Origin: Escherichia coli
GTDB lineage: Bacteria; Pseudomonadota; Gammaproteobacteria; Enterobacterales; Enterobacteriaceae
Strand: one strand, 5' to 3'
Assembly: GCF_024502345.1 (NCBI RefSeq)
Contig: NZ_JALDNN010000001.1
Length of the DNA: 64,000 nucleotides
Below the pieces are notes generated by a model. That model had not been told where the DNA came from and made no database searches. It saw only the letters and a program-made list of their open reading frames with translations. The first letter of the stretch is position 1, and each line of letters begins with the position of its first letter. Position numbers and translations under genes: made by a program. Shown here in pieces: positions 769-64,000 of this stretch.

Positions 769-3308
<2,540 letters not shown>

Positions 3309-38901: not shown

Positions 38902-38977
<76 letters not shown>

Positions 38978-39031
38978 GTTTAAAAGACATCGGCCTCAAG
39001 CGGATGTCTGGCTGAAAGGCCTGAAGAATTT

Positions 39032-39105
39032 GGCGCGTTAACAAAGCGGTTATGTAGCGGATTGCAAATCCGTCTAGTCCGGTTCGACTCCGGAACGCGC
39101 CTCCA
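39032..39105 (+). tRNA. cysT: tRNA-Cys (GCA anticodon)
   Basis: GGCGCGTTAACAAAGCGGTTATGTAGCGGATTGCAAATCCGTCTAGTCCGGTTCGACTCCGGAACGCGCCTCCA. Confidence 0.9.
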
Positions 39106-39117
39106 CTTTCTTCCCGA

Positions 39118-39204
39118 GCCCGGATGGTGGAATCGGTAGACACAAGGGATTTAAAATCCCTCGGCGTTCGCGCTGTGTGGGTTCAAGTCCCACTCCGGGT
39201 ACCA
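39118..39204 (+). tRNA. leuZ: tRNA-Leu (UAA anticodon), class II tRNA with long variable arm; integration site of the downstream island
   Basis: GCCCGGATGGTGGAATCGGTAGACACAAGGGATTTAAAATCCCTCGGCGTTCGCGCTGTGTGGGTTCAAGTCCCACTCCGGGTACCA. Confidence 0.9.
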
Positions 39205-39245
39205 TGGGAAACATCAGAATAATCAAAGCAATAAGCAGTGTCGTT

Positions 39246-39269
39246 AAACCACCTCCGGGTGGTTTTTTT
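39246..39269 (+). terminator. Rho-independent terminator of the glyW-cysT-leuZ operon
   Basis: AAACCACCTCCGGGTGGTTTTTTT hairpin plus T-run. Confidence 0.8.
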
Positions 39270-39445
39270 GTGCCTGAAATTCATGTCCTGTGCATATCCT
39301 GTGCTCACGGGGTGCGATGAGCTGCAATCTCCAGCCTGGCAATGACGAATCGAACGTGTCGCCTCCAGCATAGAGAACCAGGCCGCTTTGCCTGTTTTCC
39401 GGTACGCTTCCGGGAAGGGGGGCCTGCTGAGCAAGCTGTAATGCT

Positions 39446-40186
39446 CTAGCCACCCTGAGTACAAAGTTGCTTAATTCGTGCAATCACCTCATCTCTGTAC
39501 TTCTGGTGTCCGCGCATAGCCCGTGGATGGGCAATTCTGAAACAGATTGCATTACCTGTTTTGAACTCCCATAGCTTCCCCGGAATGACTGAAGAAGTCT
39601 CATAGCCGCCCAGCTCAGTAAGCACCTGTTTTATGATGTAGTCTGTTCTCCGGGCTCCAGATGCAAAGATGATGAAATCAGGCTCAAGGTGTTTAATTTG
39701 TACCGCCAGCAGCTTCAGCGAGGCTAATATGACTTCCTGCACTTCATTTTGAGGGCGATTGAGAGGGGTCAGTCCGTCGTAATCCCACGCCAGTAGATTG
39801 GCATACACGATTGCCTGGGGAAGAATATTAAGCTCCCGGGCCAGCCTGAAATGATATTGCGTGAAGCGGCTACGTGATTTGAGGTTGGTGGTGCCATCAT
39901 TTTGTACCGGAAGATGATTCCTGTAACGATCTACAGCTTCTTCAACCACCTGCCCGATGGTGACGTCAGGTATAAGTCCCAACACCCGTGATATCGTATT
40001 CTTACCATTCAGCGTATTCCAGCCTGCGGTTTCACGTCCAACCAGCATGATTTTTATCGGTGAATGCCAGTATTCTTCAAACGGCACGGGTAAAAAGACG
40101 CCTGAGTATTTATCTTCATTCAGGTTAAATGACTGGGCGTCAACTTCCTGTAATATCCGTTTGTACGCGTCTAATAGCTTTTCCAT
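39446..40186 (-). CDS. Island-encoded hypothetical protein, possibly a divergent uracil-DNA-glycosylase-superfamily protein
   Basis: 246-aa ORF between leuZ and the integrase; weak resemblance to UDG motifs (IMLVGRETAG; C-terminal IAHPRAMRG); assignment tentative. Confidence 0.45.
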   Translation of the reverse strand: MEKLLDAYKRILQEVDAQSFNLNEDKYSGVFLPVPFEEYWHSPIKIMLVGRETAGWNTLNGKNTISRVLGLIPDVTIGQVVEEAVDRYRNHLPVQNDGTTNLKSRSRFTQYHFRLARELNILPQAIVYANLLAWDYDGLTPLNRPQNEVQEVILASLKLLAVQIKHLEPDFIIFASGARRTDYIIKQVLTELGGYETSSVIPGKLWEFKTGNAICFRIAHPRAMRGHQKYRDEVIARIKQLCTQGG

Positions 40187-40236: not shown

Positions 40237-41484
40237 ATGATATCAATCAGATACATGAGGATAAATATGCAAAAATCCTTCCGATTCACCAATTCATCCA
40301 TCAAAGCCCTTCCGGCAAACACAGATACCCGATCTACAGAGCTTGAGGTATCAGATACCGAGGTCATAGGCCTCAAATGTCTCTCAGGTCGAACGGGTAA
40401 CAAACGTTTCCTCCTGCGCTACACATTCCACGGTACCAAAAAAAGTATCAGTATTGGCAGATTCCCTGAAATCGATGTGGGGACAGCCCGTCAGATAGCT
40501 CGCCGTCATAAGGAGGCGATTGCACTTGGAAATGACCCCAAGGCAGAGCGCGATAATTATCGTGCGATGCCAACGCTTAGTGAGTTTTTTCACCTGACCT
40601 ATGTTCCGTTCATCAAGCGCCATAAAAAGTCCTGGGATAAGGATGTTCAGCGTTTCACGCAATACATTGAACCTCGTCTGGGGAAGATACGTTACTGCGA
40701 TCTCAGGGCCAGAGAGATACAACAGGTGCTGTTTGACATGCTGGAGGGGCGTATTCACGGGCAGCAATATGCGCCGTCTACCTGTAACAGAGCCCTTGCT
40801 ATTCTGAAAACGATGGGGCGTTATGCGTTGCGACAGGATGTGCTGGAAAAGAATGAAGCCGATAAGATCCCTTTACTGAAAGAGAATAATCAGCGGACGC
40901 GCTTTTTTGATGCTGATGAGATCAGGCGCATTCTTGACGCTGCTACCCAATATCCCAACAAAGCTGCCGGGGGATTGATAGCCATGTTGTTGTTAACCGG
41001 TACACGCAAATCAGAAATGCTTAATGTCAGGCATGAACATATCGACCGGGCCAATCGTACTCTGTTCATTCCTTATACAAAAAATGGTCGCAGTCGGACG
41101 GTATATCTAAGCGATGCAGCATTATCGATTATTGATGCTATCCCACGAGTTGGCAGTAATCCGTATCTGTTCGCCATTAAGGATAATGGAAAACCGATAT
41201 CGGAACCCCGATGGGCATATGAAAAAATACTGGCACAGTGCGGTATAGACAAGAATGAAGTCTGTTTTCACACCACACGTCATTCTGTTGCCTCTTTACT
41301 GGTTTCGAGTGGTCAATTCAGCCTGTATGACGTTAAAGCACAACTGGCGCATGCCAGTATTCAAAGTACGGAGCGCTACGCGAAATTGACACCAGAGCGT
41401 ATGCGTCAGACCGGGCAGGGCGTAACTGACCTTCTTTTGAACACCGTTACTGCCGGTAACAATGATGATTTTAGCACCCCTTGA
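40237..41484 (+). CDS. int: P4-type tyrosine recombinase / integrase (probable start MQKSFRFTNSSIKALP at about 40267)
   Basis: C-terminal catalytic region with HTTRHSVASLL and LAHASIQSTERYAKL; immediately next to a tRNA gene. Confidence 0.85.
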   Translation: MISIRYMRINMQKSFRFTNSSIKALPANTDTRSTELEVSDTEVIGLKCLSGRTGNKRFLLRYTFHGTKKSISIGRFPEIDVGTARQIARRHKEAIALGNDPKAERDNYRAMPTLSEFFHLTYVPFIKRHKKSWDKDVQRFTQYIEPRLGKIRYCDLRAREIQQVLFDMLEGRIHGQQYAPSTCNRALAILKTMGRYALRQDVLEKNEADKIPLLKENNQRTRFFDADEIRRILDAATQYPNKAAGGLIAMLLLTGTRKSEMLNVRHEHIDRANRTLFIPYTKNGRSRTVYLSDAALSIIDAIPRVGSNPYLFAIKDNGKPISEPRWAYEKILAQCGIDKNEVCFHTTRHSVASLLVSSGQFSLYDVKAQLAHASIQSTERYAKLTPERMRQTGQGVTDLLLNTVTAGNNDDFSTP

Positions 41485-46429: not shown

Positions 46430-49093
46430 TCAGACTGGAAGACAGAATGTCGGATATTTACGGGCTATGATATCCATCAGTGACTTCATTCGCGGTGTTA
46501 CAGAACTAAATTTCATTTGGGGTATTTTTGCTCTTACCGCATTTTTTACATCAGTCACCGTTACTGAATAGCCTTCTGACGTCAGCCATTCAGCAACCTC
46601 TTTACAGGAATAACTTTTTTTATCTTTCAGCATCAGCCCCCATTGGCACTGAGTCAGCGCCCGGAGAAATAGTCTGACTAAAATATCATCACTACGTTTG
46701 CTTCCGACTTTTAGTTTCATATCAGAAAACACCGTCCGGCAATAGAGAAAATCACACCAGTCATCCCAGTCAGCCAGGGTCTTCAGTGTATGCGTTTGCC
46801 GCCAGTCGTCGAAAAGGGAGCGCTGCTGCAGAGCCTCTTCCATATTATCCCATGGGCGGGAAAACATCAGTAAATGCCCTTCATTCATGGCGGGCTGTAC
46901 GGGCTGGCGTTTGAAATCGAATTCCAGATTAAGACGGATATCCTGTTCCCGGGATACCAGATCGCTTTCCGACAGCCACATCTCACGCGTTGATATCAAC
47001 GTACTTCGGGATAAAGTCTGACCGGGTAAACGATTAAGGTAAAGATCTACCATATAGTCGTTATAGTCACTGCGTGGAATATCGGCAGGAGGTTTGACGC
47101 CAGCCCTGGCATGAACAACAGGTTTTCCCTGAATAGCTCTATAGGTTAACTGCCCCCGGGTTTTCATGGCGATAAGCTGGCTGACTTCATGCTTACATGT
47201 CAACATTGATGAACCCGGATCAACAATATCGCACAGCGACTGGAAGCGGGAAGACAGTGGACCGCTCATGTTTATCTTGTTAAGTGGGCAATTTGTCAAA
47301 AAGCCATCGGTTGTGACGCTGACAACCGATGAATCAGAAGGCAAAGCATTCATGAGTTCCCCGGCAACGGCGCGGATAAATCCCGTTACATGCGCAGCAA
47401 AGAATGGCTGAGTAACCGATGATGGTGGGAGGGATCTGTTTAATCCACGGGCAGTATCAAAGGCGGTTTTGGCGCGAAGGCCCTGAGCAAGTTTGCCATA
47501 AAGCGAGTTGCCAATTTCTTTCCAGAATTTCTCCTCCAGAGAACCTTTAATATGGCGATTACGGTTCTCACGGACCTGTTGAACAAAGGGAAGAAACACC
47601 GATGTTGATTCGCTGTTATGTGGGGAGGTGTCACAGATCCAGGGGACGATGATCCCATTATGGATCGTCATCTCTGCCCCGAGCGACAGAGCAAGTTCGA
47701 TTTCAGGTGCCGTTGCCCATGATTCGCCACTTAATGGAAAGAATAACCCATATTGATCGGTCCGAACCGGCAGGCTGGGATAGGGAACTGATTCCGGGAA
47801 CCGAAATGTGACAAGCGCAAATCCCATTACATGCCCACAGTAATCGTCCGGATTTTTACTGAGGCGGATGTTCCCGTAATCGGGTGTGAGGATATCTAAT
47901 AGCCCGGTGGTATACGCTCCAGCCAGATCGTAGTCATACCAGTGATCAGACGGTGTAACCCCCATCATAAAACACTCATTGCGTCCGCCGTGGTAACAGT
48001 TGATCGGGAACGTTTCAAACAACTCTCTTGAAGGAACACTGGCGGGGTTTTTAATCGTCCGGAATGCCTGTTTCTCCGTGAGCCAGAGTTCACGGGTTTT
48101 AATGTGTGTCCCAAGGCAGACTTCAGGAGACATATTGTTTTCTTTAAGTGTTTTGGTGAACCGTGAAACTGCCATCGCCCCGATGGTGGCGGGGACACGA
48201 TCAATCATCAGCTCCCGGGCGCAAAAATTGCGAACCTGTAAAGCATAACGAACCGCAATCTCGGCATCCCGCAGAGCATAGGCTTCAAACCCTGCTCTGT
48301 CGCCCAGAAGATATTCACGCATATTGGTTATGGAATAAGGTGCAGGAATGGTGAGTTTGGGAAGACCCAGTAATTCACCACATTCAGCCAGACCCATACC
48401 CCCGGGAGTGATAAGCAGTGTATCGATGAAAGCTACGTTACTGCAACGCGGAGGGGAAGTTCGTTTGTCAAACATTATCTGTTCAGTCTTTACGCGACGT
48501 TCCTGCTGTTCATCAAAATCGATACCGTAACGATTTTTGAAGCTGCTGACAGTACCGCGTATTCCTTTCAGAAGAATTTTGTAGTCTGACCAGAAATTGG
48601 CAAAGGAGGCGATATCCGCACGAATGAAATGCGCATATATATTAATAATACCGGGCCATTTTGTAATCACACCCGTTTCAAGAAGCGGTGTAATCGTTTG
48701 ACAGAGAAATTCCTTAAAAGACAGCCGGGATTTTTTCTGTGAGTCAGGTGGATAGATAATGTTCGATATACCTGTATTATCGGGTAAGATAACATAACTC
48801 TGATATGACAGAATATCATTCTGTCGTGTTTCAGGGTTGAAAACATATTCGGTATCAAAACCGATATGGAGTGTCAGGTCACTTGAAATAACAGATACTT
48901 TTTTTGATGCAGGTGGTATCACAGGATAATCATCAAGCGTTTTAGGTCTTTTACGATTGAGCGCTGGCTCTGAAGTCACGGACTGATACCCCGAGGCGGC
49001 AGCGAGGATGTCCTGCAAATTATTGCTCATAGTTAACTCCGAAAAAATGCCGGGAGCTGTGTCCCGGCATAAAGAATCAGGATTTAATAACAT
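46430..49093 (-). CDS. Family B DNA polymerase of the primer-independent (piPolB) type, pipolin hallmark gene
   Basis: 887-aa ORF; Exo I FDTE; motif B KEIGNSLYGK; motif C-like VTTDGF; KTRG in place of the canonical KxY motif (IAMKTRGQLTY). Confidence 0.8.
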   Translation of the reverse strand: MLLNPDSLCRDTAPGIFSELTMSNNLQDILAAASGYQSVTSEPALNRKRPKTLDDYPVIPPASKKVSVISSDLTLHIGFDTEYVFNPETRQNDILSYQSYVILPDNTGISNIIYPPDSQKKSRLSFKEFLCQTITPLLETGVITKWPGIINIYAHFIRADIASFANFWSDYKILLKGIRGTVSSFKNRYGIDFDEQQERRVKTEQIMFDKRTSPPRCSNVAFIDTLLITPGGMGLAECGELLGLPKLTIPAPYSITNMREYLLGDRAGFEAYALRDAEIAVRYALQVRNFCARELMIDRVPATIGAMAVSRFTKTLKENNMSPEVCLGTHIKTRELWLTEKQAFRTIKNPASVPSRELFETFPINCYHGGRNECFMMGVTPSDHWYDYDLAGAYTTGLLDILTPDYGNIRLSKNPDDYCGHVMGFALVTFRFPESVPYPSLPVRTDQYGLFFPLSGESWATAPEIELALSLGAEMTIHNGIIVPWICDTSPHNSESTSVFLPFVQQVRENRNRHIKGSLEEKFWKEIGNSLYGKLAQGLRAKTAFDTARGLNRSLPPSSVTQPFFAAHVTGFIRAVAGELMNALPSDSSVVSVTTDGFLTNCPLNKINMSGPLSSRFQSLCDIVDPGSSMLTCKHEVSQLIAMKTRGQLTYRAIQGKPVVHARAGVKPPADIPRSDYNDYMVDLYLNRLPGQTLSRSTLISTREMWLSESDLVSREQDIRLNLEFDFKRQPVQPAMNEGHLLMFSRPWDNMEEALQQRSLFDDWRQTHTLKTLADWDDWCDFLYCRTVFSDMKLKVGSKRSDDILVRLFLRALTQCQWGLMLKDKKSYSCKEVAEWLTSEGYSVTVTDVKNAVRAKIPQMKFSSVTPRMKSLMDIIARKYPTFCLPV

Positions 49094-50055: not shown

Positions 50056-51186
50056 TCATTTTTTCGTGTCATAACTTTCTATGACCTGAGAAACCACTGC
50101 GTGCGATGTCGCTGCATTGTGAAAAGCGTAGCGACGGGTCGCCGTGAGTGAATGGTGATTTAGCAGATGGGAAGCGATTGCAATATCCCCGGTCGCCTGT
50201 AGTACCCGGGTGGCAAAGGTACGGCGCAGGTCATGCATCCGCAGGTTATCAATGTTGGCATCCCGACAAATACGGGCAAAGGTTGCACGCGGATATGCCA
50301 GAGGGCGGGCATTGTCGGTTAGTTGTGGAAAAATGTAAGTTTTGCTGAGCATCAGGTCTTGCTGGCACTGGACAACTGCAATGGCTGGAGGTGCAAGTGG
50401 GCAGGTGAAAGGGTGTCCGGACTTTGTATCAGGCAGTATGAGTTGATGCATATCCGGGTGCCAGTACTCCCATTTCAGGGTACATACCTCACCAATACGC
50501 ATCCCCGTATAAAGAGCAAGCAATATAGAATCAGCTGCCGGTGTTTGCAGCGCTGTTGCCGCGTCAATAAAGCGCGGGATTTCTGTCGCTGATAGTGTGC
50601 GATAGCGAATGTTATTTTCTTTCAGATAGCGGACATGTGACATCGGGGAATGTGTGATCCATCCAGCACGTACTGCCAGAGAGCATATTTTGGACAATAT
50701 TGCGAGGATACGGTTTACTGTTGACGGACGTAATTTTTCCCGTAAGCCAGCAGCATATTGTTCTAGTTCCCCTGCCGTGATGTCGCGAAGTTGCCGCTTG
50801 CCCCAGAACGGGCGAACGTAGAGGTTGAGTTTTGACAACTCTGACTGAGGACTCTTTTTATACAACTGCAAATCCGGTAGCCACAGGTCATTGATGGCCT
50901 GTTCCACAGTGAATCGACGGGACTGAACCGCAAGACGATTTTTATCAGCAAGCAGTTTCATCACATGCTGACGGGCATCCTCAACGCAGAGCTGAGGGAA
51001 CTGACCCAGGGTTTCATATATACGCTGATTGTTTATAGTGGCACGAAAGGCCAGCGTGATCCGATTGGGATACACCAGAGCACGCAGGTTTTGGCAGTGA
51101 ATATCACGGTATTCCTGACAACCCGTGAGGGGATGTGGAAGTTGGTGAAGTGATTTGTTGCTGAAACGCAGATCCAGAATAGGCAT
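50056..51186 (-). CDS. Second tyrosine recombinase (XerC/D-like integrase)
   Basis: C-terminal catalytic motifs HDLRRTFATR, LLNHH, TATRRYAF. Confidence 0.8.
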   Translation of the reverse strand: MPILDLRFSNKSLHQLPHPLTGCQEYRDIHCQNLRALVYPNRITLAFRATINNQRIYETLGQFPQLCVEDARQHVMKLLADKNRLAVQSRRFTVEQAINDLWLPDLQLYKKSPQSELSKLNLYVRPFWGKRQLRDITAGELEQYAAGLREKLRPSTVNRILAILSKICSLAVRAGWITHSPMSHVRYLKENNIRYRTLSATEIPRFIDAATALQTPAADSILLALYTGMRIGEVCTLKWEYWHPDMHQLILPDTKSGHPFTCPLAPPAIAVVQCQQDLMLSKTYIFPQLTDNARPLAYPRATFARICRDANIDNLRMHDLRRTFATRVLQATGDIAIASHLLNHHSLTATRRYAFHNAATSHAVVSQVIESYDTKK

Positions 51187-54505: not shown

Positions 54506-56029
54506 ATGAACGACAAAATCAGTCAGGACACGATCAACAAAGCCCTGTGGGCCGCGTGTGATACGTTCCGTGGCACCATCAGTGCTGATACCTATAAAGA
54601 CTTTATCCTTACCATGCTATTCCTTAAGTACATTTCGGATGTCTGGCAGGATCACTACGACGAATATAAAGTGCAATATGGTGATGAGCCGGAACTGATT
54701 GAAGCGATGATGGCGAACGAGCGCTTCGTGTTGCCGAAAAGCGCCAGTTTCTATGCGTTGTACGAGCGACGTCATGAGCCGGGCAACGGTGAGCGTATCG
54801 ATCAGGCGCTGCATGCGATTGAAGAAGCCAACGGCACCAAACTGAAAGATGCCGGGAAAAGTGTCTTCCAGGATATTTCGTTTAACACTGACCGTCTGGG
54901 CGAAGAAAAACAGAAGAACACCATCCTGCGTCAGTTGCTGGAAGACTTTGCCGGTGAAGATCTTAACCTGAAGCCAAGCCGTGTCGGTACGCTGGACGTT
55001 ATCGGTAATGCTTACGAATATCTGATCAAAAACTTTGCTGCCAGCGGTGGGCAGAAAGCCGGGGAATTCTATACCCCACCGGAAGTTTCGGATCTCATCG
55101 CTGAACTGCTTGATCCTCAACCCGGTGATACAATCTGCGACCCGGCCTGTGGTTCCGGTTCGTTGCTAATGAAGTGCGGGCGTAAAATTGTCTCAGGACA
55201 TGATAGCCGCAACTATGCGTTGTTCGGTCAGGAAGCGATTGGCTCCACGTGGTCGCTGGCGAAAATGAACATGTTCCTGCACGGCGAAGATAACCACAAA
55301 ATCGAGTGGGGCGATACCATTCGTAACCCGAAGTTGTTGGATAAAAACGGCGACCTGATGCTGTTTGATATCGTGACCGCAAACCCACCGTTCAGCCTGG
55401 ATAAGTGGGGCCATGACGAGGCCGAGAATGATAAGTTTGGGCGTTTCCGTCGCGGTGTACCGCCGAAGACTAAAGGGGATTACGCCTTTATCTCGCATAT
55501 GATCGAAACCCTGAAACCGGGAACGGGTCGTATGGGCGTAGTGGTGCCGCACGGTGTGCTGTTCCGTGGCTCCAGCGAAGGCAAAATTCGTCAGAAGCTG
55601 ATTGATGAAAACCTACTCGATGCGGTGATTGGCCTGCCTGAAAAACTGTTCTACGGTACGGGTATTCCTGCTGCAATTCTGATTTTTAAAAAGCAGAAAG
55701 TGGATGACAAGGTGCTGTTTATCGACGCCAGCCGTGAATTTAAGGCAGGTAAAAACCAGAACCAGCTCAGCGCAGAAAACATCGAGAAAATCGTCAAGAC
55801 CTACCGTGATGGCGATAGCGTCGAGAAATATGCCTACCTTGCCAGCCTGAAGGAGATTCAGGACAACGATTACAACCTCAATATTCCGCGCTATGTCGAT
55901 ACCTTTGAAGAAGAAGAAGATATCGATTTACTTGCCGTTCGTGCTGAGCGGGAGGAATTGAAAGCGGAACTGGCGAAATTGGAAACGCAGATGGCGGGTT
56001 ATCTGGAGGAGCTGGGTTATGGTGCCTAA
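54506..56029 (+). CDS. hsdM: Type I restriction-modification system methyltransferase subunit HsdM
   Basis: 507-aa ORF; SAM-binding motif DPACGSGSLL and catalytic NPPF (TANPPFSLDKW). Confidence 0.9.
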   Translation: MNDKISQDTINKALWAACDTFRGTISADTYKDFILTMLFLKYISDVWQDHYDEYKVQYGDEPELIEAMMANERFVLPKSASFYALYERRHEPGNGERIDQALHAIEEANGTKLKDAGKSVFQDISFNTDRLGEEKQKNTILRQLLEDFAGEDLNLKPSRVGTLDVIGNAYEYLIKNFAASGGQKAGEFYTPPEVSDLIAELLDPQPGDTICDPACGSGSLLMKCGRKIVSGHDSRNYALFGQEAIGSTWSLAKMNMFLHGEDNHKIEWGDTIRNPKLLDKNGDLMLFDIVTANPPFSLDKWGHDEAENDKFGRFRRGVPPKTKGDYAFISHMIETLKPGTGRMGVVVPHGVLFRGSSEGKIRQKLIDENLLDAVIGLPEKLFYGTGIPAAILIFKKQKVDDKVLFIDASREFKAGKNQNQLSAENIEKIVKTYRDGDSVEKYAYLASLKEIQDNDYNLNIPRYVDTFEEEEDIDLLAVRAEREELKAELAKLETQMAGYLEELGYGA

Positions 56030-57266
56030 GGGGTGGAAACGAGTACCGATTAAGGATGTGTGCGAGTCTATAATCGATTGCGTAAATAAAACAGCTCCAG
56101 TTGTTGATTATGAAACTCCCTTTAAGATGATTCGTACCACGAATGTACGTAATGGAAGGGTTAATACTGAAGACGTCAGATATGTGACTGAAGACACTTA
56201 CCTGCAATGGGTTCGACGCGGAAAACCGCAAGTAGGTGATATCATCTTTACACGTGAAGCACCTGTAGGAGAAGCAGGTGTCCTGCAAGATGCTGAAGGT
56301 ATTTTCCTCGGGCAAAGAACGATGATGTATCGAGCTGATACCTGCCTTTCAGATAACTATTTCTTGTTCTACTCGTTATCAAGTCCCTTCTGCCAGAAAC
56401 AAATTGAAGATTTTAGCAATGGCGGTACTGTAGCTCATATGAGAGTTCCAGATTGCGGTGAGATATTGATCAATCTACCGCCTTTCCTCGAACAAAAGAA
56501 AATCGCCCAAATCCTGTCAACCTGGGATAAGGCGATTTCGGTGACGGAAAAGCTTCTCACCAACAGCCAGCAGCAGAAAAAAGCCCTGATGCAGCAATTG
56601 CTTACTGGGAAGAAACGCTTGCTGGATGAGAATGGGACAAGGTTTTCTGAAACTTGGAAATTATATGCCTTATCGAAATTATTTCAGAGAGTTACGACTA
56701 AAAACAATGGAAAAAGCAACAATGTTGTAACCATTTCTGGACAACATGGTTTGATTAAACAGGAAGACTTTTTCAAGAAAACAGTCGCATCAGATACCCT
56801 TGATGGTTATTTCTTATTAAAAAAAGGGCAGTTTGCTTACAATAAAAGTTACTCTAATGGTTATCCGATGGGTGCAATAAAAAGATTAAATCGATATCCA
56901 GAGGGAGTAGTAACAACTCTGTATATATGTTTTGAACTTACTACACCCAAAAAATCATGTGGTGACTATTGGGAGCATTATTTTGAGTCAGGGCTTTTGA
57001 ATAACAGTTTGTCTCAAATTGCTCATGAAGGTGGACGGGCTCATGGCTTGCTAAATGTAAAACCTTCGGACTTCTTTTCATTAAAAGTTGCGGTTCCTGG
57101 CTTTGAAGAGCAACAAAAAATCGCATTAGTTCTGTCCGCTGCCGACACCGAAATCTCCACACTGGAGAAAAAACTCGCCTGCCTGAAAGACGAGAAGAAA
57201 GCCTTGATGCAGCAACTGCTGACCGGGAAACGTCGGGTGAAAGTGGATGAGGCGGTTGCCGTATGA
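56019..57266 (+). CDS. hsdS: Type I restriction-modification system specificity subunit HsdS
   Basis: 415-aa ORF with two target-recognition domains separated by conserved repeats (KKALMQQLLTGKKRLL and KKALMQQLLTGKRRVK); overlaps the hsdM end. Confidence 0.85.
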   Translation: MVPKGWKRVPIKDVCESIIDCVNKTAPVVDYETPFKMIRTTNVRNGRVNTEDVRYVTEDTYLQWVRRGKPQVGDIIFTREAPVGEAGVLQDAEGIFLGQRTMMYRADTCLSDNYFLFYSLSSPFCQKQIEDFSNGGTVAHMRVPDCGEILINLPPFLEQKKIAQILSTWDKAISVTEKLLTNSQQQKKALMQQLLTGKKRLLDENGTRFSETWKLYALSKLFQRVTTKNNGKSNNVVTISGQHGLIKQEDFFKKTVASDTLDGYFLLKKGQFAYNKSYSNGYPMGAIKRLNRYPEGVVTTLYICFELTTPKKSCGDYWEHYFESGLLNNSLSQIAHEGGRAHGLLNVKPSDFFSLKVAVPGFEEQQKIALVLSAADTEISTLEKKLACLKDEKKALMQQLLTGKRRVKVDEAVAV

Positions 57267-57946
57267 AACTGACGAAAAGCGGTCCACTGACTGACCGGGA
57301 AATCGACTGGCTGGAAGAAATATTAATGAAGTATGGAATGGATGATTCTGTACTCTGTTTCTCTGAGCTGGATGGATTGCTGACGGCGATTTTATCAGGT
57401 CCAAATATGGTTTCACCCAATATCTGGCTGAGTGCTATTTGGGGAGGAGGCGATTATCATCCGAAATGGTCATCTGAGAGAGAGATGGAGCGTTTTGTCA
57501 GTCTGTGTTTTCAGCATATGAACGATATCGCTGGTTGCCTTTATGACGCCCCTGAACTGTTTGAGCCGATTTTCAATGAGCGTGAGGTAAAGGGGGAAAA
57601 ATATACCATTGTGGAAGAGTGGTGTTTTGGTTATATGAAAGGAAAGTCACTGGATGACTGGTCTGGTCTTCCCGGTGAGTTACGGCCTTCTCTGGAAGTG
57701 ATCGCTCTTCATGGCGTGGAGAAGAATTTTCCTGTACTTGAGAAAATGACCGGAGAGCAGTTTGAGAAAAGTATTTCCCTTATTCAGCCTGCTGCACTGG
57801 CACTTTATCAGTACTGGTTGTCAGTGAGAATGTCAGAGGCATCATCCCGGCCTGTTCCAGTGAAGGGGGCAGAAAACATGCCCGGGCGAAATGACCCGTG
57901 TCCGTGTGGCAGCGGTAAAAAATTTAAGAAGTGCTGTCTGCATTGA
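57263..57946 (+). CDS. YecA-like (UPF0149) protein with C-terminal SEC-C zinc motif, embedded in the Type I R-M operon
   Basis: 227-aa ORF; C-terminal GRNDPCPCGSGKKFKKCCLH; start overlaps the hsdS stop (ATGA). Confidence 0.8.
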   Translation: MKLTKSGPLTDREIDWLEEILMKYGMDDSVLCFSELDGLLTAILSGPNMVSPNIWLSAIWGGGDYHPKWSSEREMERFVSLCFQHMNDIAGCLYDAPELFEPIFNEREVKGEKYTIVEEWCFGYMKGKSLDDWSGLPGELRPSLEVIALHGVEKNFPVLEKMTGEQFEKSISLIQPAALALYQYWLSVRMSEASSRPVPVKGAENMPGRNDPCPCGSGKKFKKCCLH

Positions 57947-57995
57947 TGAATCTTCATGTGACCAGTAGCGAGTAGCGCCAGAAAGAAAAGGATTA

Positions 57996-60900
57996 ATGAT
58001 GAACCAGACGTACACGCCAAAATTCCAGGAAGAATACAGCGCCAAAATTCCGGCACTGACGTTACTGACCAGCCTCGGCTGGACGTTTTTATCTCCGAAA
58101 CAGATTATGGATTACCGGGGCTATAAACAGGATGAGGTGGTGCTGCGTCCGGTTCTGCGTGAAGAGCTGTCGAAGCGTTCCTTTATGGCGGGTGGCAAAA
58201 CCTGCCAGTTATCGGAAAAAGCACTGGATAACCTGATATCACAGGTCTGTTCTCCGGCGCTGAATGAAGGGCTGCTCAAAGCCAATGAACGGATGTATAA
58301 CCATCTGCTCTACGGTATCGCCGTCACGGAGTTTGTCGATGGCAAGAAGGTCAACCCCACCATTGCGCTGATCGACTGGGAACATCCGGAAAATAACCAG
58401 TTCCACTTTACTGAAGAATTTACGGTATTGCGGTCAGGTGGTGTTGAAACCCGGAGGCCAGATATTGTCTGCTTTGTTAATGGTATCCCGCTGGCTGTTA
58501 TTGAAGCGAAAAGCCCGGCTGGTCATGGCAAGAAAGGGCCAACCATTGACGAGGGGATATCCCAGAGTATCCGCAACCAGTTCAACGATGAAATCCCGCA
58601 GCTGTTTGTCTACAGCCAGTTATTACTTTCGATTAACGGTCATGACGGGCGCTACGGTACATGCCATACGCCAATGAAATTCTGGGCGGCATGGCGCGAA
58701 GAAGATATTACCGATGCGCAGATGTATGCTCTGCGCAACCATCCTTTATCGACTGAACAAATTCATGCGTTGTTTGATCATCGTCCATCAGCCGATCTCA
58801 ACTGGTACCAACAGTTAATCGCCGCCGGTGAACTGGCTGTCAGTGGACAGGACAAACTGCTCATCAGCCTGCTTTCGCCGGAACGTCTGCTGGAGATGAC
58901 CCGCTTCTTCACTCTGTTTGATAAAAAGACCGGGAAAATTGTCGCCCGCTATCAGCAGGTGTTCGGTATTAAAAGACTGCTGGAGCGCATCAGTACCCGC
59001 AGACCCGATGGGGGCAGGGAAGGTGGTGTTATCTGGCATACCACCGGCTCTGGCAAATCGTACACCATGGTGTTCCTCAGCAAGGCGCTGATTCTTCATG
59101 ACAGCCTGAAGCGGTGTCGTATCGTGGTGGTGACGGACCGTATCGATCTTGAAGAACAGCTCAGCAGTACCTTTGCATCCGGCGGCGAGTTGGCCGGGAA
59201 AAAAGACAAAGCCAATGCAATGGCGACATCCGGGCAGATGCTGGCGAAACAGATTGGCTCCGGTAAAGAACGCATCATTTTCACCCTAATCCAGAAATTT
59301 AATTCAGCGACAAAACTTCCTGAATGCGTCAATACCAGCCCCGATATCATCGTTCTGGTTGATGAAGGACACCGTAGCCAGGGTGGTGAGAACCATGTGC
59401 GAATGAAACTGGCACTGCCGAACGCCGCCTTTGTGGCATTTACTGGTACGCCATTGCTAAAAGAAGATAAGACCACCAATAAATTCGGACCGATTGTCCA
59501 CGCTTATACCATGCAGCGAGCGGTAGAAGATAAAGCCGTTACACCTTTGCTGTATGAAGAACGTATTCCCGACCTTGAGGTTAACGATCGGGCAATAGAT
59601 GCCTGGTTTGATCGTATTACCGATGGGTTAAGCGAAGCGCAAAAAGCCGACCTGAAGCGTAAATATGCCCGTAAAGGTGAGGTTTATAGTGCAGATGATC
59701 GCATCCGTCTGATCGCACTCGATATCGCCACGCACTTCTCGAAGAATATTGATGAGGGACTGAAAGGCCAGCTTGCCTGCGACAGCAAGATTTCCGCCAT
59801 CAAATATAAAAAGTATCTTGATGAAGCCGGGTTGTTTGAGTCAGCTGTAGTTATCAGCCCGCCGGATACCCGGGAAGGGAATACCGAAGTGGATGAAAGC
59901 AAACTGCCGGAAGTGACGAAATGGTGGAAGGATAATGTCGGCACGCAGGATGAGTCTGTGTATACCCGTAATGTCATCAGTCGTTTCGATACCGATGAGA
60001 AGCTCAAATTGCTGATAGTCGTTGATAAACTGCTCACCGGGTTTGATGAGCCGAAGAATACCGTGCTGTATATCGACAAGCCGCTTAAGTCCCACAACCT
60101 TATCCAGGCGATTGCGCGGGTGAACCGACTGCATCCACTAAAAAAGTTCGGTCTGCTGATTGATTATCGCGGTATTCTGGCTGAGCTGGACACGACTATC
60201 GGCAAATATCAGGACCTCGCCTCCCGAACTCAGGGCGGATACGATATCAAAGATATTGACGGGCTGTACAGCGCCATGAGCTCTGAATACAAGCGCCTGC
60301 CGCATCTGTATAACCAGCTGTGGGCCATATTTGCCGGTGTTAAAAACAAAAATGATACTGAGCAGTTACGTGCGGTACTGGTGCCTAAAATGGAAGAACG
60401 TGACGGAGAGATGGTCGATATCCATCAGAAAACCCGTGATGATTTCTTCGAGGCGTTAACGGCCTTTGCCGGATGCCTGAAAGTGGCACTGCAGTCCGCT
60501 ACCTTCTTCACCGACAAGAGCTTTACGGAACAAGACCGAAATCTCTATAAAGAAACCGTAAAACAGATGTCCAGCCTGCGCCAGTGGGCGATGCAGGTAA
60601 GTGGAGAGCAGGTCAATTATGACGACTACGCTGAGCAGGTGAAAAAACTGCTGGATAAGCATGTCACCGGCGTTGAAGTTCGTGAACCGGATGGCGTGTA
60701 TGAAGTCGGTAAAATGGGCAAGAGCGAAAAGCCCGAAGAGTGGGACAACAATAAAACCCGCAATGAAACCGACATCATTAAAACCCGTGTGACAAAGATG
60801 ATTGAGCAGGAATTGCGTGATGACCCGTATGCTCAGGAGGCATTTTCAAAACTCCTGCGTATGGCTATCGAAGAGGCTGAAAAACTGTTTGACCATCCGC

Positions 60901-61283
60901 TGAAACAGTACCTTTTGTTCCGTGAATTTGAAGAACAGGTTGAAGCCCGTAAGCTCAGCGATATCCCGGATGCACTGGCGGTAAACAAGCATGCTCAGGC
61001 GTATTACGGTGTATTTAAAAAAGAGCTACCTGAGGTTTTTGCGGTAAACGACGTTCAGGTGCAGGATAAGTGGACGAAGCTGGCTTTTGAAGTGGACAAC
61101 ATTATCGTCAAAGCGGTGGCAGAAAACTCCCTGAACCCCCAGGACATTGAGAAAGTCGTTAAGACAAGTCTGCTACCACTGCTGTTTACGGCCTGCCGGG
61201 AAATTGGTGCCGGAATGAATCAGGTTAACCGTATTGTTGAAACCATCATCCAGATACTGCGCGTTGGTTTGATGAAATCATGA
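57996..61283 (+). CDS. hsdR: Type I restriction-modification system endonuclease/helicase subunit HsdR
   Basis: 1095-aa ORF; Walker A TGSGKS, DEAH-type motif VLVDEGHRSQ, helicase C region. Confidence 0.9.
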   Translation: MMNQTYTPKFQEEYSAKIPALTLLTSLGWTFLSPKQIMDYRGYKQDEVVLRPVLREELSKRSFMAGGKTCQLSEKALDNLISQVCSPALNEGLLKANERMYNHLLYGIAVTEFVDGKKVNPTIALIDWEHPENNQFHFTEEFTVLRSGGVETRRPDIVCFVNGIPLAVIEAKSPAGHGKKGPTIDEGISQSIRNQFNDEIPQLFVYSQLLLSINGHDGRYGTCHTPMKFWAAWREEDITDAQMYALRNHPLSTEQIHALFDHRPSADLNWYQQLIAAGELAVSGQDKLLISLLSPERLLEMTRFFTLFDKKTGKIVARYQQVFGIKRLLERISTRRPDGGREGGVIWHTTGSGKSYTMVFLSKALILHDSLKRCRIVVVTDRIDLEEQLSSTFASGGELAGKKDKANAMATSGQMLAKQIGSGKERIIFTLIQKFNSATKLPECVNTSPDIIVLVDEGHRSQGGENHVRMKLALPNAAFVAFTGTPLLKEDKTTNKFGPIVHAYTMQRAVEDKAVTPLLYEERIPDLEVNDRAIDAWFDRITDGLSEAQKADLKRKYARKGEVYSADDRIRLIALDIATHFSKNIDEGLKGQLACDSKISAIKYKKYLDEAGLFESAVVISPPDTREGNTEVDESKLPEVTKWWKDNVGTQDESVYTRNVISRFDTDEKLKLLIVVDKLLTGFDEPKNTVLYIDKPLKSHNLIQAIARVNRLHPLKKFGLLIDYRGILAELDTTIGKYQDLASRTQGGYDIKDIDGLYSAMSSEYKRLPHLYNQLWAIFAGVKNKNDTEQLRAVLVPKMEERDGEMVDIHQKTRDDFFEALTAFAGCLKVALQSATFFTDKSFTEQDRNLYKETVKQMSSLRQWAMQVSGEQVNYDDYAEQVKKLLDKHVTGVEVREPDGVYEVGKMGKSEKPEEWDNNKTRNETDIIKTRVTKMIEQELRDDPYAQEAFSKLLRMAIEEAEKLFDHPLKQYLLFREFEEQVEARKLSDIPDALAVNKHAQAYYGVFKKELPEVFAVNDVQVQDKWTKLAFEVDNIIVKAVAENSLNPQDIEKVVKTSLLPLLFTACREIGAGMNQVNRIVETIIQILRVGLMKS

Positions 61284-62035
61284 GTGAAAAAGAATCGCCA
61301 TCAATGAAAGCGTTACGCATTGTCTATGGTGATGAGGTCATCGTCGTACAGTGTGTTCCGCGTCAGGTCGTAAAGGGCAGGGTGCTCATTAAGGTTTATC
61401 CGGACTGCCGGGTTGTGGCCTCTGTACCGCCTGAAACACCGGAGCACGAGGTATTGTCTGCGCTGAAAAAACGTGGGCGCTGGATATACCAGCAACTGCG
61501 TGATTTCAGGGAGCAACAGATACACATTGTTCCGCGTCAGTATGTCAGCGGAGAAAGCCATTATTATCTCGGTAAGCAATATCAGTTGAAAGTGACAGAA
61601 GACGCTACTGTGCCGCAACGAGTGAAAATGTTGCGTGGACGTCTGGAAGTGACTGTCAGACACAAATCGGCAGAAAAGATTAAAGCCTTGCTGGCTGAAT
61701 GGTATCGGGAACGTGCCAGAGATGTTTTTCAGCGCAGGCTTGATTTACTGATTCCGCAGACCCTTTGGGTCAGTGAGCGTCCTCCGATACGTCTGCGGGC
61801 GATGCAAACGCAATGGGGCAACTGTTCAGCAAAAGGCTGTCTGACCCTGAATCCATGGCTGGTTAAGGCATCTTCAGAATGTATCGATTATGTTTTGCTA
61901 CATGAGTTATGCCATGTGGCTGAGCACAACCACAGCGAGGAGTTTTACCGTCTGATGGGACAGGTTATGCCGGGCTGGGAAAAGGTTAAGAAGCGACTGG
62001 ATGGTATGGCTGGGATGTTGTTGGCAGATATGTAA
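61280..62035 (+). CDS. YgjP-like (DUF45 / M48 family) zinc metallopeptidase, coupled to hsdR
   Basis: 251-aa ORF with HExxH motif (LLHELCHVAEHNH); start overlaps the hsdR stop (ATGA). Confidence 0.75.
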   Translation: MSEKESPSMKALRIVYGDEVIVVQCVPRQVVKGRVLIKVYPDCRVVASVPPETPEHEVLSALKKRGRWIYQQLRDFREQQIHIVPRQYVSGESHYYLGKQYQLKVTEDATVPQRVKMLRGRLEVTVRHKSAEKIKALLAEWYRERARDVFQRRLDLLIPQTLWVSERPPIRLRAMQTQWGNCSAKGCLTLNPWLVKASSECIDYVLLHELCHVAEHNHSEEFYRLMGQVMPGWEKVKKRLDGMAGMLLADM

Positions 62036-62060
62036 CTTATCAATATGAGTTCTTAAGAGT

Positions 62061-63932
62061 TTGGTCAGTCTCGTTAATGCAGGGAGTATAATAATGAGTA
62101 AGTTAGATAATAAAATTGAAGCACGCCATCGTAATTTGTTTGATGTTCTAAATGCGCAAAAATATACCGTTGATTACTTTCAGCGCGAGTATAGCTGGGG
62201 TGAGAAACATATTGAAGAGTTGGTTACAGACTTAACATCTGCGTTTCTCAATGAATACACAGTCGGTGATTCTCGGGAGCAGGGTGAAAACTACAATAAT
62301 TATTACTTAGGACCATTTGTTGTGAGTAGTAAAGATGGAAAGCGGAGTATTATTGATGGTCAGCAACGACTGACTTCATTAACTTTATTTCTAATTTACC
62401 TCCATAATCTTCAGAAAGAACTTAAATATGAAGAGAAAATAGAATCAATGATTTTCTCCGAGCTACGTGGCAGCAAATCATTCAATATAGTAGTTGAAGA
62501 CAGAATTCCTTGCATGGAAGCATTGTTTAATTTTGGTAGCTATAGTTTAGTTGATGGGGATGATGAGTCAACCCATAACATGGTGGAGAGATATCAGAAT
62601 ATCACAGATGCTTTTCCTGATGAGTTAAAAGGTCAGGCTTTTCCTTTTTTTATCGACTGGCTTAAGTATAACGTTATTATGGTTGAGATAGTCGCCTATT
62701 CAGATGAAAACGCATATACCATCTTTGAGACTATGAATGACCGAGGATTGAATCTTACTCCGTCCGAAATGCTTAAAGGTTTTTTACTTTCACGTTTTCA
62801 TCAGGGAGATAAACGCCAAAAGGCAAATGAACTCTGGAAAAAAGCGATGATGGATTTAAAAAGCTATGACAAAGATGAAGACCAACGTTTTTTCCAGTCA
62901 TGGTTGCGTGCTCAATATGCTGATACAATACGCCCGGGTAAAGCTGGTTCAAAAAATGAAGACTTTGAAAAAATAGGTACGCGTTTTCATAGCTGGGTTA
63001 GAGATAATCTTCAGGCGGTGGGATTGGACCCAGATAATGGTGAGACATTCGAACGATTTATACAAAAAAACTTTTTGTTTTATTTGAATGCCTATACACA
63101 AATACTGAATGCTGAGAGAGTATTAACGCACCAACTGGAATATGTATTTTATATCCACCATTGGGGTATTGCACCTACTTTAAGTTTTCCTTTGATGTTG
63201 GCTCCATTAAATGTAGGTGACAGTCCTGAGGCTGTGATAGCCAAAATAAACCTAGTGGCTCGCTATATTGAAACGTTTGTTGTTCGTCGTTCTGTTAATT
63301 TCCGAAAATTCTCTGCCAGTTCTATTCGTTACACAATGTACAGTCTTGTTAAAGAGATTCGTGGTAAAAGTTTTGAAGAATTAAAAGATTTATTATCTAA
63401 GAAGTTATCCGAAATGCCAGATACTTTTGCAGGAATGGAAGAGTTTCGTCTCCATGGTCAAAACTATCGTTTTGTGAAGTTTTTGCTTTCTCGTATAACT
63501 GCGTGGGTTGAGCAACAAGCCGGAATGAGTACAACCTTCATTACATATTATCAGCCAGAACACGGTAAGCCATTTGAAGTCGAGCATATTTGGGCCGATA
63601 AATATGAACGTTACTCTGATGAGTTTGAACAAGAGCACGAATTTAACAATTACAGAAATCGCTTAGGTGATTTGGTTTTATTACCTAGAGGCTCAAACCA
63701 GTCATATGGTGATTTGTGTTACGATCAAAAGCAACCTCATTACATCAAAGAGAATCTCCTGGCTAAATCGTTATGCCCATTGGCATATATGAATAACCCT
63801 AATTTCAATCAGTTGAGAAATGTATTCGGATTGCCTTTCAAACCACATGATTCATTTAAAAAACAAGATGTCGATGAACGACAGTCTTTGTATAAAATAA
63901 TTTGTGAGAATATTTGGGGCCATAATTTATAG
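62061..63932 (+). CDS. GmrSD-family Type IV restriction endonuclease (N-terminal DUF262 ParB-like domain, C-terminal DUF1524 HNH-like nuclease)
   Basis: 623-aa ORF; DUF262 signature IIDGQQRLTSL; C-terminal segment EVEHIWADKYERYSDEFEQEHEFNNYRNRLGDLVLLP. Confidence 0.75.
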   Translation: MVSLVNAGSIIMSKLDNKIEARHRNLFDVLNAQKYTVDYFQREYSWGEKHIEELVTDLTSAFLNEYTVGDSREQGENYNNYYLGPFVVSSKDGKRSIIDGQQRLTSLTLFLIYLHNLQKELKYEEKIESMIFSELRGSKSFNIVVEDRIPCMEALFNFGSYSLVDGDDESTHNMVERYQNITDAFPDELKGQAFPFFIDWLKYNVIMVEIVAYSDENAYTIFETMNDRGLNLTPSEMLKGFLLSRFHQGDKRQKANELWKKAMMDLKSYDKDEDQRFFQSWLRAQYADTIRPGKAGSKNEDFEKIGTRFHSWVRDNLQAVGLDPDNGETFERFIQKNFLFYLNAYTQILNAERVLTHQLEYVFYIHHWGIAPTLSFPLMLAPLNVGDSPEAVIAKINLVARYIETFVVRRSVNFRKFSASSIRYTMYSLVKEIRGKSFEELKDLLSKKLSEMPDTFAGMEEFRLHGQNYRFVKFLLSRITAWVEQQAGMSTTFITYYQPEHGKPFEVEHIWADKYERYSDEFEQEHEFNNYRNRLGDLVLLPRGSNQSYGDLCYDQKQPHYIKENLLAKSLCPLAYMNNPNFNQLRNVFGLPFKPHDSFKKQDVDERQSLYKIICENIWGHNL

Positions 63933-64000
63933 CAAAGTTGGGGTGTTAATTAATGTGTAATGGCATCATGATTTTTAAAAGGAGGTTGAATTGCGTTCTG

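What the first reader, a model, noticed from the sequence alone, without database searches (positions are those of the whole stretch)
39118..39204. tRNA-Leu T-stem carries a compensatory base-pair change relative to the K-12 leuZ sequence as I recall it
The T-arm here reads GTGGG-TTCAAGT-CCCAC, whereas K-12 leuZ as I recall it has GCGGG-TTCAAGT-CCCGC. A paired C-to-T and G-to-A change preserves the stem. Integrative elements targeting tRNA genes rebuild the 3' part of the tRNA from their own att sequence, so this may be the footprint of attL.
Basis: partly seen in the sequence, partly recalled or inferred. Interest (0 to 1): 0.4.

Follow-up and report, generated by a model that had tools for sequence, protein, structure and literature searches.

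The report
Mobile element rebuilt leuZ tRNA end
The paired base change in this E. coli leucine tRNA gene is real, and it is there because an integrated mobile island (a pipolin) replaced the gene's 3' half with its own copy, which is a well-known consequence of integration into tRNA genes.

Summary
leuZ (39118-39204) has the T-arm GTGGG-TTCAAGT-CCCAC, while K-12 MG1655 has GCGGG-TTCAAGT-CCCGC. This is a C50:G64 to U50:A64 compensatory change at window positions 39178 and 39192.

[quoted passage not shown] It differs from K-12 at 9 positions, against 16 in the 3130 nt upstream.
- Directly downstream lies an integrase-bearing island that runs off the window. It is homologous to the published E. 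coli pipolins, including the one in ETEC H10407.
- In related genomes the far end of the island carries the displaced K-12-type leuZ 3' half next to yecA.
- 121 of 5424 complete E. coli genomes carry the variant, and none has it joined to the native yecA flank.
- In tandem arrays the variant stays with the element's left arm even when detached from leuZ.
- The free phage mEp390 carries the same variant in its annotated attP.
- GTGGG/CCCAC is the native leuZ allele in Pseudocitrobacter and Citrobacter koseri and occurs in leuZ of other enterobacterial genera, which suggests the copy came from such hosts.

Only about a quarter to a third of E. coli pipolin left junctions carry the variant. This is a textbook tRNA-gene integration, so interest is low.

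The parts
38902..39105 (+). glyW (38902-38977) and cysT (39032-39105), the host tRNA genes upstream of leuZ in the same operon.
   Evidence: ARAGORN and Rfam tRNA. There is a single difference from K-12 here, at 38995.
39118..39204 (+). leuZ, tRNA-Leu(UAA). It is a chimera: the 5' half is from the host, and everything from the anticodon loop onward is from the element.
39150..39156 (+). Anticodon loop TTTAAAA. This is the 5' edge of the repeated block and the inferred crossover (core) region, flanked by the anticodon-stem inverted repeat AGGGA/TCCCT.
   Evidence: In all elements examined the far-end or internal copies begin here: pipolins, a P2-like prophage, mEp390-like phages and another island. 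The first attL/attR difference is at 39178, so the exchange lies between 39149 and 39177.
39177..39193 (+). T-arm GTGGG-TTCAAGT-CCCAC. The variant pair is U50:A64 (39178 T, 39192 A), where K-12 has C50:G64.
   Evidence: The exact 87-nt variant occurs in 121 of 5424 E. coli genomes.
39149..39279 (+). Tyrosine-recombinase attachment-site repeat at the tRNA end (attL in the classical sense; the pipolin papers call it attR). It comprises the element-borne copy of the leuZ 3' half, the 3'ETS and the terminator.
   Evidence: It aligns at 93% over 133 columns with the far-end repeat of AR_0085. Homology to K-12 ends at about 39279-39284.
39205..39269 (+). Element-borne allele of the 3'ETS-leuZ small RNA, including the terminator hairpin ACCACC-TCCG-GGTGGT (39248-39263) and the T run.
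   Evidence: K-12 annotates 3'ETS-leuZ at the homologous place. The differences from K-12 are at 39212, 39215, a 2-nt deletion after 39222, 39245 and 39255. The RyhB-pairing core is unchanged.
39446..40186 (-). Conserved 246-aa hypothetical gene of the pipolin left arm.
   Evidence: It is 95-98% identical at protein level in Buttiauxella, C. koseri and a divergent Escherichia (91-93% nt identity to the window). It has no Pfam or NCBIfam hit.
40237..41484 (+). Tyrosine integrase with an N-terminal arm-binding domain, in the position of the 'IntSXT' type of the pipolin literature.
   Evidence: Pfam PF00589 (8.9e-24) and PF13356 (2.9e-14). RefSeq annotates it as 'site-specific integrase' in syntenic genomes.
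46430..49093 (-). piPolB, the family-B DNA polymerase that is the hallmark of pipolins.
   Evidence: It is 99.1% identical at protein level to the H10407 orthologue and contains KEIGNSLYG and TTD motifs, which I take from recollection to be PolB motifs B and C. It has weak PHROG DNA-polymerase hits. RefSeq names syntenic orthologues 'DNA polymerase type-B family protein'. H10407 is named as a pipolin carrier in PMC7385651.
50056..51186 (-). Second tyrosine recombinase, in the position of the 'IntP2' type of the pipolin literature, near a small helix-turn-helix (excisionase-like) gene.
   Evidence: Pfam PF00589 (2.4e-21) and PF22022. Syntenic annotation appears.
54506..64000 (+). Cargo (defence) module of the island: type I restriction-modification hsdM, hsdS, a YecA paralogue and hsdR, then an M48 peptidase and a DUF262 gene. 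The island continues past the window end.
   Evidence: ORFs are, and annotation of homologous islands. Identity to AR_0085 is 97-98% up to 64000.

Best explanation
A pipolin is integrated into the single tRNA-Leu(UAA) gene leuZ. A pipolin is an integrative island that encodes a family-B DNA polymerase, two tyrosine recombinases and a cargo of defence genes.

The recombinase exchanged strands at or next to the anticodon loop (TTTAAAA, 39150-39156). The element's attP carries its own ~130-nt copy of everything downstream of that point: the 3' half of the tRNA, the 3'ETS and the terminator. Integration therefore left an intact leuZ whose 5' half is host DNA and whose 3' half is element DNA. The host's original 3' half was pushed to the far end of the island, about 37 kb away in relatives, next to yecA.

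The element's copy has U50:A64 where E. coli has C50:G64. Both sides are changed because the whole T-arm comes from the element, and the pair is intact because the copy has to make a working tRNA. U50:A64 is the native leuZ allele in Pseudocitrobacter and C. koseri and is found in leuZ of Citrobacter, Kluyvera and related genera, so this arm probably derives from such hosts.

Shown:
- the alleles at both junctions in relatives;
- the repeat boundaries;
- the association with elements across 5424 genomes;
- linkage of the variant to the element's left arm.

Inferred:
- the exact exchange point;
- which of the two recombinases acts;
- that this window's own far junction looks like those of its relatives.
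For: - K-12 has GCGGG/CCCGC and the window has GTGGG/CCCAC.
- Differences from K-12 are concentrated in 39149-39279: 9 positions in 131 nt against 16 in 3130 nt, p = 2e-6.
- The island downstream is 97-98% identical to islands in AR_0085 and H10407. H10407 is a published pipolin carrier, and E. coli pipolins are reported to integrate at the Leu-tRNA gene, flanked by att-like direct repeats (PMC7385651; PMC11551731).
- The far-end repeat in AR_0085 starts at the anticodon loop, carries the K-12 T-stem and spacer, and is followed by yecA. The same holds in 203740 (H121).
- The variant is in 121 of 5424 genomes, of which 113 also have the pipolin-type spacer. By my estimate from the sampled rows, the other 8 are about 7 with a different island (e.g. 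Ec73552) and 1 with a siphovirus prophage (23GD11002).
- No genome has the variant T-stem joined to the native flank.
- In the tandem arrays in JX21CE8 and 2017.02.04CC, the internal junction (element right end | core | variant T-stem | element left arm) carries the variant, while the terminal copy is K-12-type.
- Phage mEp390's annotated attP carries the leuZ 3' half with GTGGG/CCCAC.
- The variant is native in island-free Pseudocitrobacter loci (leuZ directly followed by yecA) and at the yecA-side junction in C. koseri. It is also present in leuZ of other Citrobacter, Kluyvera, Buttiauxella and Yokenella genomes, some of which carry elements there.
Against: - The window stops at 64000, before the island's far end, so the displaced K-12-type half has not been seen for this genome itself.
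- Most E. coli pipolin left junctions have the K-12-type T-stem. Of those with a non-K-12 spacer, 228 plus 58 do, against 113 with the variant. The variant is therefore a polymorphism among element copies rather than a fixed signature.
- Mosaic haplotypes exist: K-12 T-stem with a foreign spacer (L004, L051), and island-free MB53 with a partly island-type spacer.
- The only attP-like junction found in metagenomes has a fully K-12-type repeat and may be an assembly join through the repeat.
- No excision or integration has been demonstrated experimentally here.
Confidence: 0.9

Rival explanations
1. This is ordinary vertical polymorphism. A lineage of E. coli fixed a compensatory C:G to U:A change in its own leuZ, unrelated to the neighbouring island.
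For: Compensatory changes in tRNA stems do occur. The U:G intermediate is nearly as stable as the final pair (-6.1 vs -6.5 kcal/mol for the T-arm hairpin). The variant is native in sister genera.
Against: No E. coli genome has the variant next to the native flank. All 121 variant copies are accounted for by element-type spacers. The far-end copies in variant-carrying genomes are K-12-type. The variant is found detached from the leuZ 5' half at internal junctions.
Confidence: 0.03
2. The island and the variant arrived together by homologous recombination of a chromosomal segment from a Citrobacter-like donor. The conserved tRNA operon served as left homology, rather than site-specific integration in E. 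coli.
For: The glyW-cysT-leuZ 5' sequences are nearly identical across genera, so a left crossover there would be invisible. The same pipolin right end is present at leuZ in C. braakii, C. koseri and K. intermedia. Mosaic haplotypes show that homologous exchange does occur in this repeat.
Against: In E. coli relatives the element's right end abuts a K-12-type 3' half and E. coli yecA, exactly at the anticodon loop. A donor-derived segment would carry the donor's variant there. There is no homology at that junction to support RecA-mediated exchange. The upstream flank is 99.2-99.8% E. coli right up to leuZ.
Confidence: 0.05
3. The two changes arose in place after integration, by mutation of the element-borne copy inside E. 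coli.
For: Only about a quarter to a third of pipolin left junctions carry the variant, so the allele changed at some point within the family.
Against: The same allele is the native one in several genera and is present in unrelated leuZ-targeting elements, including a free phage's attP. Shared descent or exchange is much more likely than repeated identical double mutation.
Confidence: 0.02

Closest known systems
E. coli pipolins (piPolB-encoding integrative elements; Redrejo-Rodriguez et al. 2017, from my recollection; Flament-Simon et al. 2020, PMC7385651; PMC11551731, 2024)
   Same: The integration site is the same (Leu-tRNA gene). The gene order matches the core genes reported for enterobacterial pipolins: integrase next to the tRNA, DUF2787, a WYL-type regulator, piPolB, a small HTH (excisionase-like) gene, a second tyrosine recombinase, then a defence cargo. 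The flanking att-like direct repeats are the same. The island is 97.7% identical to that of the named pipolin carrier H10407.
   Different: This copy is at most 97.8% identical to any island in 5426 complete E. coli genomes. In the parts of these papers I read, I found no discussion of allelic differences inside the repeat (the T-stem pair, the spacer types). Their naming convention calls the tRNA-overlapping repeat attR.
Integration into tRNA genes with an attP-encoded 3' gene segment (Reiter et al. 1989; Williams 2002, NAR 30:866, cited as ref. 72 of PMC11551731; anticodon-loop sublocation class, as for phage HP1 in a tRNA-Leu gene). Cited from my own knowledge; the papers were not available to read.
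   Same: [quoted passage not shown] The integrase gene lies next to the junction, and the host's 3' half is displaced to the other end.
   Different: Nothing differs in principle. Here the block also includes a functional small-RNA spacer and the operon terminator.
Lambdoid phage mEp390 (NC_019721) and relatives, which target leuZ
   Same: The annotated attP is the leuZ 3' half from the anticodon loop onward, with the same GTGGG/CCCAC T-stem, next to int and xis.
   Different: The integrase is essentially unrelated: no reported match to the pipolin's IntSXT-type or IntP2-type recombinases at E <= 1e-3. The spacer sequence is different, and it is a phage rather than a pipolin.

Membership tests
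Pipolin | Encodes a piPolB (primer-independent family-B DNA polymerase), the sole hallmark gene. | tested here: met
   The ORF at 46430-49093 (-) is 99.1% identical at protein level to the orthologue in H10407, a published pipolin carrier. It has KEIGNSLYG and TTD motifs, which I take from recollection to be PolB motifs B and C (PMC7385651). It gives weak PHROG DNA-polymerase hits, and RefSeq names orthologues 'DNA polymerase type-B family protein'. There is no Pfam, NCBIfam or PDB sequence hit. Primer-independent activity was not tested.
Pipolin | Flanked by att-like direct repeats, one of which overlaps a tRNA gene (Leu-tRNA in E. coli). | tested here: inconclusive
   The tRNA-side repeat is present at 39149-39279. 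The far repeat lies beyond the window. It is present and K-12-type in the homologous islands of AR_0085, 203740, JX21CE8 and 2017.02.04CC.
Pipolin | Carries one or more tyrosine recombinases. | tested here: met
   The ORFs at 40237-41484 and 50056-51186 both match PF00589.
tRNA-gene integrative element, anticodon-loop class | The identity block between the att sites begins at the anticodon loop and extends to or past the 3' end of the tRNA gene. | tested here: met
   Far-end and internal copies begin at (A)TTTAAAATCCC in all elements examined and run through the terminator.
tRNA-gene integrative element, anticodon-loop class | An intact, functional tRNA gene is regenerated at the junction. | tested here: met
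   ARAGORN and Rfam call a complete tRNA-Leu(UAA) with all stems paired, and the MFE fold is a cloverleaf. Expression and aminoacylation were not tested.
tRNA-gene integrative element, anticodon-loop class | Strand exchange occurs within the anticodon loop (a 6-8 bp overlap). | not testable with these tools
   The exchange can only be bounded to 39149-39177: the start of the repeat on one side, the first attL/attR difference on the other. It needs in vitro or in vivo recombination mapping.
Compensatory base-pair substitution | Both partners of one helix pair are changed and Watson-Crick pairing is retained. | tested here: met
   39178 C>T and 39192 G>A are the partners of pair 50:64 in the T-stem.

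The most novel reading that the evidence does not exclude
Integration at leuZ replaces more than a neutral segment. It swaps an allele of the only tRNA-Leu(UAA) gene (T-stem pair 50:64, one of the pairs said to tune EF-Tu affinity) and the whole 3'ETS-leuZ small RNA, a sponge for RyhB and RybB, for element-encoded versions derived from other genera.

The spectrum of left-junction haplotypes could be read as a record of inter-genus transfer and of continuing exchange between host and element copies. That spectrum comprises the variant or K-12 T-stem, at least three spacer types, mosaics, and a possible deletion scar in the island-free strain MB53. The replacement could also measurably alter iron- or envelope-stress small-RNA buffering in carriers.
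Probability: 0.1. Interest if true: 0.4.

Novelty: already known. Interest (0 to 1): 0.15.

Why it matters
The practical value is as a marker. In E. coli, a GTGGG/CCCAC T-stem in leuZ reliably indicates that something is integrated there, since none of the 121 variant copies adjoins the native flank. The allele also hints at the element's previous hosts. The case is a clean worked example of an element rebuilding an essential single-copy tRNA gene, and with it a regulatory small RNA and the operon terminator, from its own DNA. It does not change our understanding of tRNA-gene integration or of pipolins.

Tried and rejected
- I searched the window for a second copy of the leuZ 3' half and found none. 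The island runs off the end of the window.
- I searched for an excised (attP) form. There was no match in viral contigs. One metagenome contig (OGQR01000830.1) has the right-end | core | left-arm junction, but with a fully K-12-type repeat. It could be a circle, a tandem array or an assembly join through identical repeats, so it is uninformative for the variant.
- No complete E. coli assembly has a circular pipolin replicon. All 14 full-length matches to the synthetic attP query are chromosomal tandem arrays.
- I tried to decide which recombinase uses the site by comparing integrases of all the elements that share the anticodon-loop boundary. They fall into at least three distant lineages with 20-28% identity between them, so nothing could be inferred.
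- piPolB gave no hit in Pfam, NCBIfam or PDB sequences. Identification rests on orthology, motifs and weak PHROG hits.
- Williams 2002 could not be read because the paper is not held.
- I predicted duplexes between RyhB or RybB and the spacer alleles. The full-length duplex energies are nearly equal and ignore intramolecular structure, so they give no evidence of altered function.
- I rejected a sequencing-error explanation, because the variant is paired, identical in 121 genomes and present in other genera.
- Gene conversion from another tRNA-Leu gene is unlikely, because (from recollection, not checked here) no other E. coli tRNA-Leu gene has this T-arm.

Full report
**Observation.** The window carries the uvrY-uvrC-pgsA genes followed by the glyW-cysT-leuZ tRNA operon. 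ARAGORN places tRNA-Leu(UAA) at 39118-39204, and Rfam's tRNA model aligns it with all stems paired. The T-arm reads GTGGG-TTCAAGT-CCCAC (39177-39193). The two tRNAs differ only at 39178 (C>T) and 39192 (G>A), the two partners of T-stem pair 50:64. Both alleles fold into the same cloverleaf.

**Context.** The T-stem changes are the first of a cluster.
- Against K-12, the 3130 nt upstream of the anticodon loop have 16 differences.
- The 131 nt from the loop to the end of the terminator have 9 differing positions: the two in the T-stem, 39212, 39215, a 2-nt deletion after 39222, 39245, 39255 and 39277 (Fisher p = 2e-6).
- Homology to K-12 stops at about 39279-39284, and K-12's yecA flank is replaced by foreign DNA.

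That foreign DNA encodes:
- a conserved 246-aa protein;
- a tyrosine integrase with an arm-binding domain (40237-41484);
- DUF2787 and DUF726 genes and an HTH regulator;
- an 887-aa polymerase-like protein (46430-49093);
- a second tyrosine recombinase (50056-51186);
- a type I restriction-modification system and further defence-type genes, running off the window.

**What the island is.**
- The island is 97-98% identical to islands at the same place in many E. coli genomes, including ETEC H10407.
- Flament-Simon et al. (PMC7385651) report that all but one of the E. coli pipolins they analysed sit in the same Leu-tRNA gene between att-like direct repeats. They name H10407 as a carrier with a myovirus prophage sharing the site.
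- The 2024 NAR study (PMC11551731) lists the same core genes for enterobacterial pipolins: IntSXT, DUF2787, WYL, piPolB, excisionase and IntP2.
- The window's 887-aa protein is 99.1% identical to the H10407 orthologue. It has KEIGNSLYG and TTD motifs, which I take from recollection to be PolB motifs, and weak phage DNA-polymerase profile hits.

The island is therefore a pipolin, which is a known kind of element.

**Test of the attL reading.** The window lacks the island's far end, so I used relatives.
- In AR_0085, whose left junction is 99.8% identical to the window and carries the variant, the island ends about 37 kb away. There a second copy begins exactly at the anticodon loop (…gcgtagaaTTTAAAATCCC…), carries GCGGG/CCCGC and the K-12-type spacer, and is followed by yecA.
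- Strain 203740 has the same arrangement.

This is the pattern expected if strand exchange occurred at or near the anticodon loop. In that case everything 3' of the loop at the tRNA-side junction comes from the element, and the host's original 3' half is displaced to the far side. An exchange in the T-loop is excluded, because both partners of pair 50:64 switch together.

**Population test.**
- Of 5424 complete E. coli genomes with leuZ, 121 carry the exact variant tRNA and the rest are K-12-type.
- I built two synthetic queries joining the variant T-stem to the native flank, one with the K-12 spacer and one with the window's spacer. Neither found a match. No record reached 99% in the first. 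The best full-length match in the second, MB53, has the K-12 T-stem.
- A 75-nt T-arm-plus-spacer query splits junctions with a non-K-12 spacer into 113 variant, 228 K-12 T-stem with the same spacer, and 58 K-12 T-stem with a third spacer type.
- By my estimate from the sampled rows, the remaining eight variant genomes carry other elements at leuZ: about seven a different integrase island (e.g. Ec73552) and one a siphovirus prophage (23GD11002).

Within E. coli the variant is therefore always element-associated. It is also only one of several alleles carried by these elements.

**Linkage to the element.** A synthetic attP query (element right end, repeat, element left arm) found 14 complete genomes with such an internal junction, meaning tandem elements at leuZ. 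In the two I examined, the internal junction carries GTGGG/CCCAC and the island-type spacer fused to the element's left arm, while the terminal copy next to yecA is K-12-type. So the variant travels with the element's left arm even when separated from the leuZ 5' half. Independently, the virion-derived genome of lambdoid phage mEp390 has an annotated attP that is the leuZ 3' half from the anticodon loop, with GTGGG/CCCAC, beside int and xis.

**Where the allele comes from.** A scan of one genome per species found GTGGGTTCAAGTCCCACTCCGGGTACCA in leuZ of many Citrobacter species, Kluyvera, Pseudocitrobacter, Buttiauxella, Yokenella and some Enterobacter and Raoultella.
- In Pseudocitrobacter the variant leuZ is directly followed by yecA, so the locus is island-free.
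- In C. koseri the yecA-side copy is variant.
- On that basis the allele is native in those two taxa.
- Pipolin ends identical to the E. coli ones occur at leuZ in C. braakii, C. koseri, K. intermedia and Buttiauxella.

The element-borne U50:A64 copy thus matches the leuZ of other enterobacterial genera, consistent with horizontal movement of these elements between genera. That consistency is an inference.

**Loose ends.**
- Mosaic left junctions (K-12 T-stem with foreign spacer) and the island-free MB53 with a partly island-type spacer suggest homologous exchange between the two repeat copies. This is unproven.
- The one metagenomic attP-like junction has a fully K-12-type repeat and may be an assembly artefact.
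- Which of the two recombinases acts cannot be told. At least three distant integrase lineages use the same boundary.
- The replaced segment includes 3'ETS-leuZ, a known sponge for RyhB (PMC6191717). Its pairing core is invariant in every copy seen, and the window has a private G>T at its edge.

**Verdict.** It is a standard consequence of integration into a tRNA gene by a known element family, so novelty and interest are low.

Noticed in passing
window 39205-39269: The element-borne segment also replaces the whole 3'ETS-leuZ small RNA (a RyhB/RybB sponge) and the operon terminator. The differences from K-12 lie outside the RyhB-pairing core AAGCAATAAGCAGTGTCGT, which is invariant in most enterobacterial copies and in the pipolin-borne copies seen; two non-pipolin elements (mEp390-type) have a diverged spacer with changes in that stretch. 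The exception in the window is a G>T at 39245, seen in no other copy examined, which removes the terminal pair. The terminator tetraloop changes from UUCG to UCCG (39255).
   Followed up: partly
window 57263-57946 (+): The pipolin cargo contains a full-length YecA paralogue between hsdS and hsdR of the type I restriction-modification system. It is 57% identical at protein level to chromosomal YecA, the gene that natively flanks the leuZ attachment site.
   Followed up: partly
window 51330-52460 (-) and 52967-54202 (-): Next to the IntP2-type recombinase lie a 376-aa ORF of the same length as the recombinase and a 411-aa ORF. Neither has a Pfam hit; the 376-aa ORF also has no NCBIfam or PHROG hit, and the 411-aa ORF was not scanned against those. 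They are conserved as 'hypothetical protein' in H10407 and 203740.
   Followed up: no
L056 (NZ_CP178438.1) 20001-20411; L057 (NZ_AP027754.1) 20001-20431; 12 further genomes: Fourteen complete E. coli genomes have two pipolin-type elements in tandem at leuZ, with an internal attP-like junction. In 2017.02.04CC the distal element has the conserved left-arm gene and an integrase, IS debris, two DUF262 genes and Hhe, but no piPolB. The 2024 pipolin survey states that no pipolin 'reinfection' was detected in Enterobacterales.
   Followed up: partly
L006 (NZ_CP073939.1, strain MB53) 2955-3160: This island-free leuZ-yecA locus has a spacer with the island-type changes (C, C, 2-nt deletion) but a K-12 T-stem, distal spacer and flank. 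It may be a scar of island loss by homologous recombination between the two repeats, or a natural spacer polymorphism.
   Followed up: partly
L060 (phage Fostie PP925832.1) ~1500-1632: Fostie's attP-like copy of the leuZ 3' half reads TCCGGCTACCA instead of TCCGGGTACCA. If real, lysogens would have a C:C mismatch at acceptor pair 2:71 of their only tRNA-Leu(UAA). It may be a sequencing error.
   Followed up: no
L055 (metagenome contig OGQR01000830.1) 4290-4466 (-): This is a pipolin right-end | repeat | left-arm junction with a repeat that is K-12-type at all variable positions. It could be an excised circle, a tandem array or an assembly join through identical repeats. It also shows that some pipolins carry a fully E. 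coli-like copy.
   Followed up: partly
L051/L052 (CV839-06, FORC_031), leuZ-side junctions: A third pipolin spacer haplotype (AAAGACAAGAATAATC … CACCTACGGG) resembles the spacers of several Citrobacter leuZ loci but is combined with the E. coli-type T-stem. It occurs in about 58 genomes. The origin of this mosaic is unexplained.
   Followed up: partly
(whole E. coli collection): The leuZ queries find about 7100 places in 5424 genomes. A sizeable minority of E. coli strains therefore carry at least one extra partial leuZ copy, so leuZ is a busy integration hotspot used by several unrelated elements.
   Followed up: no
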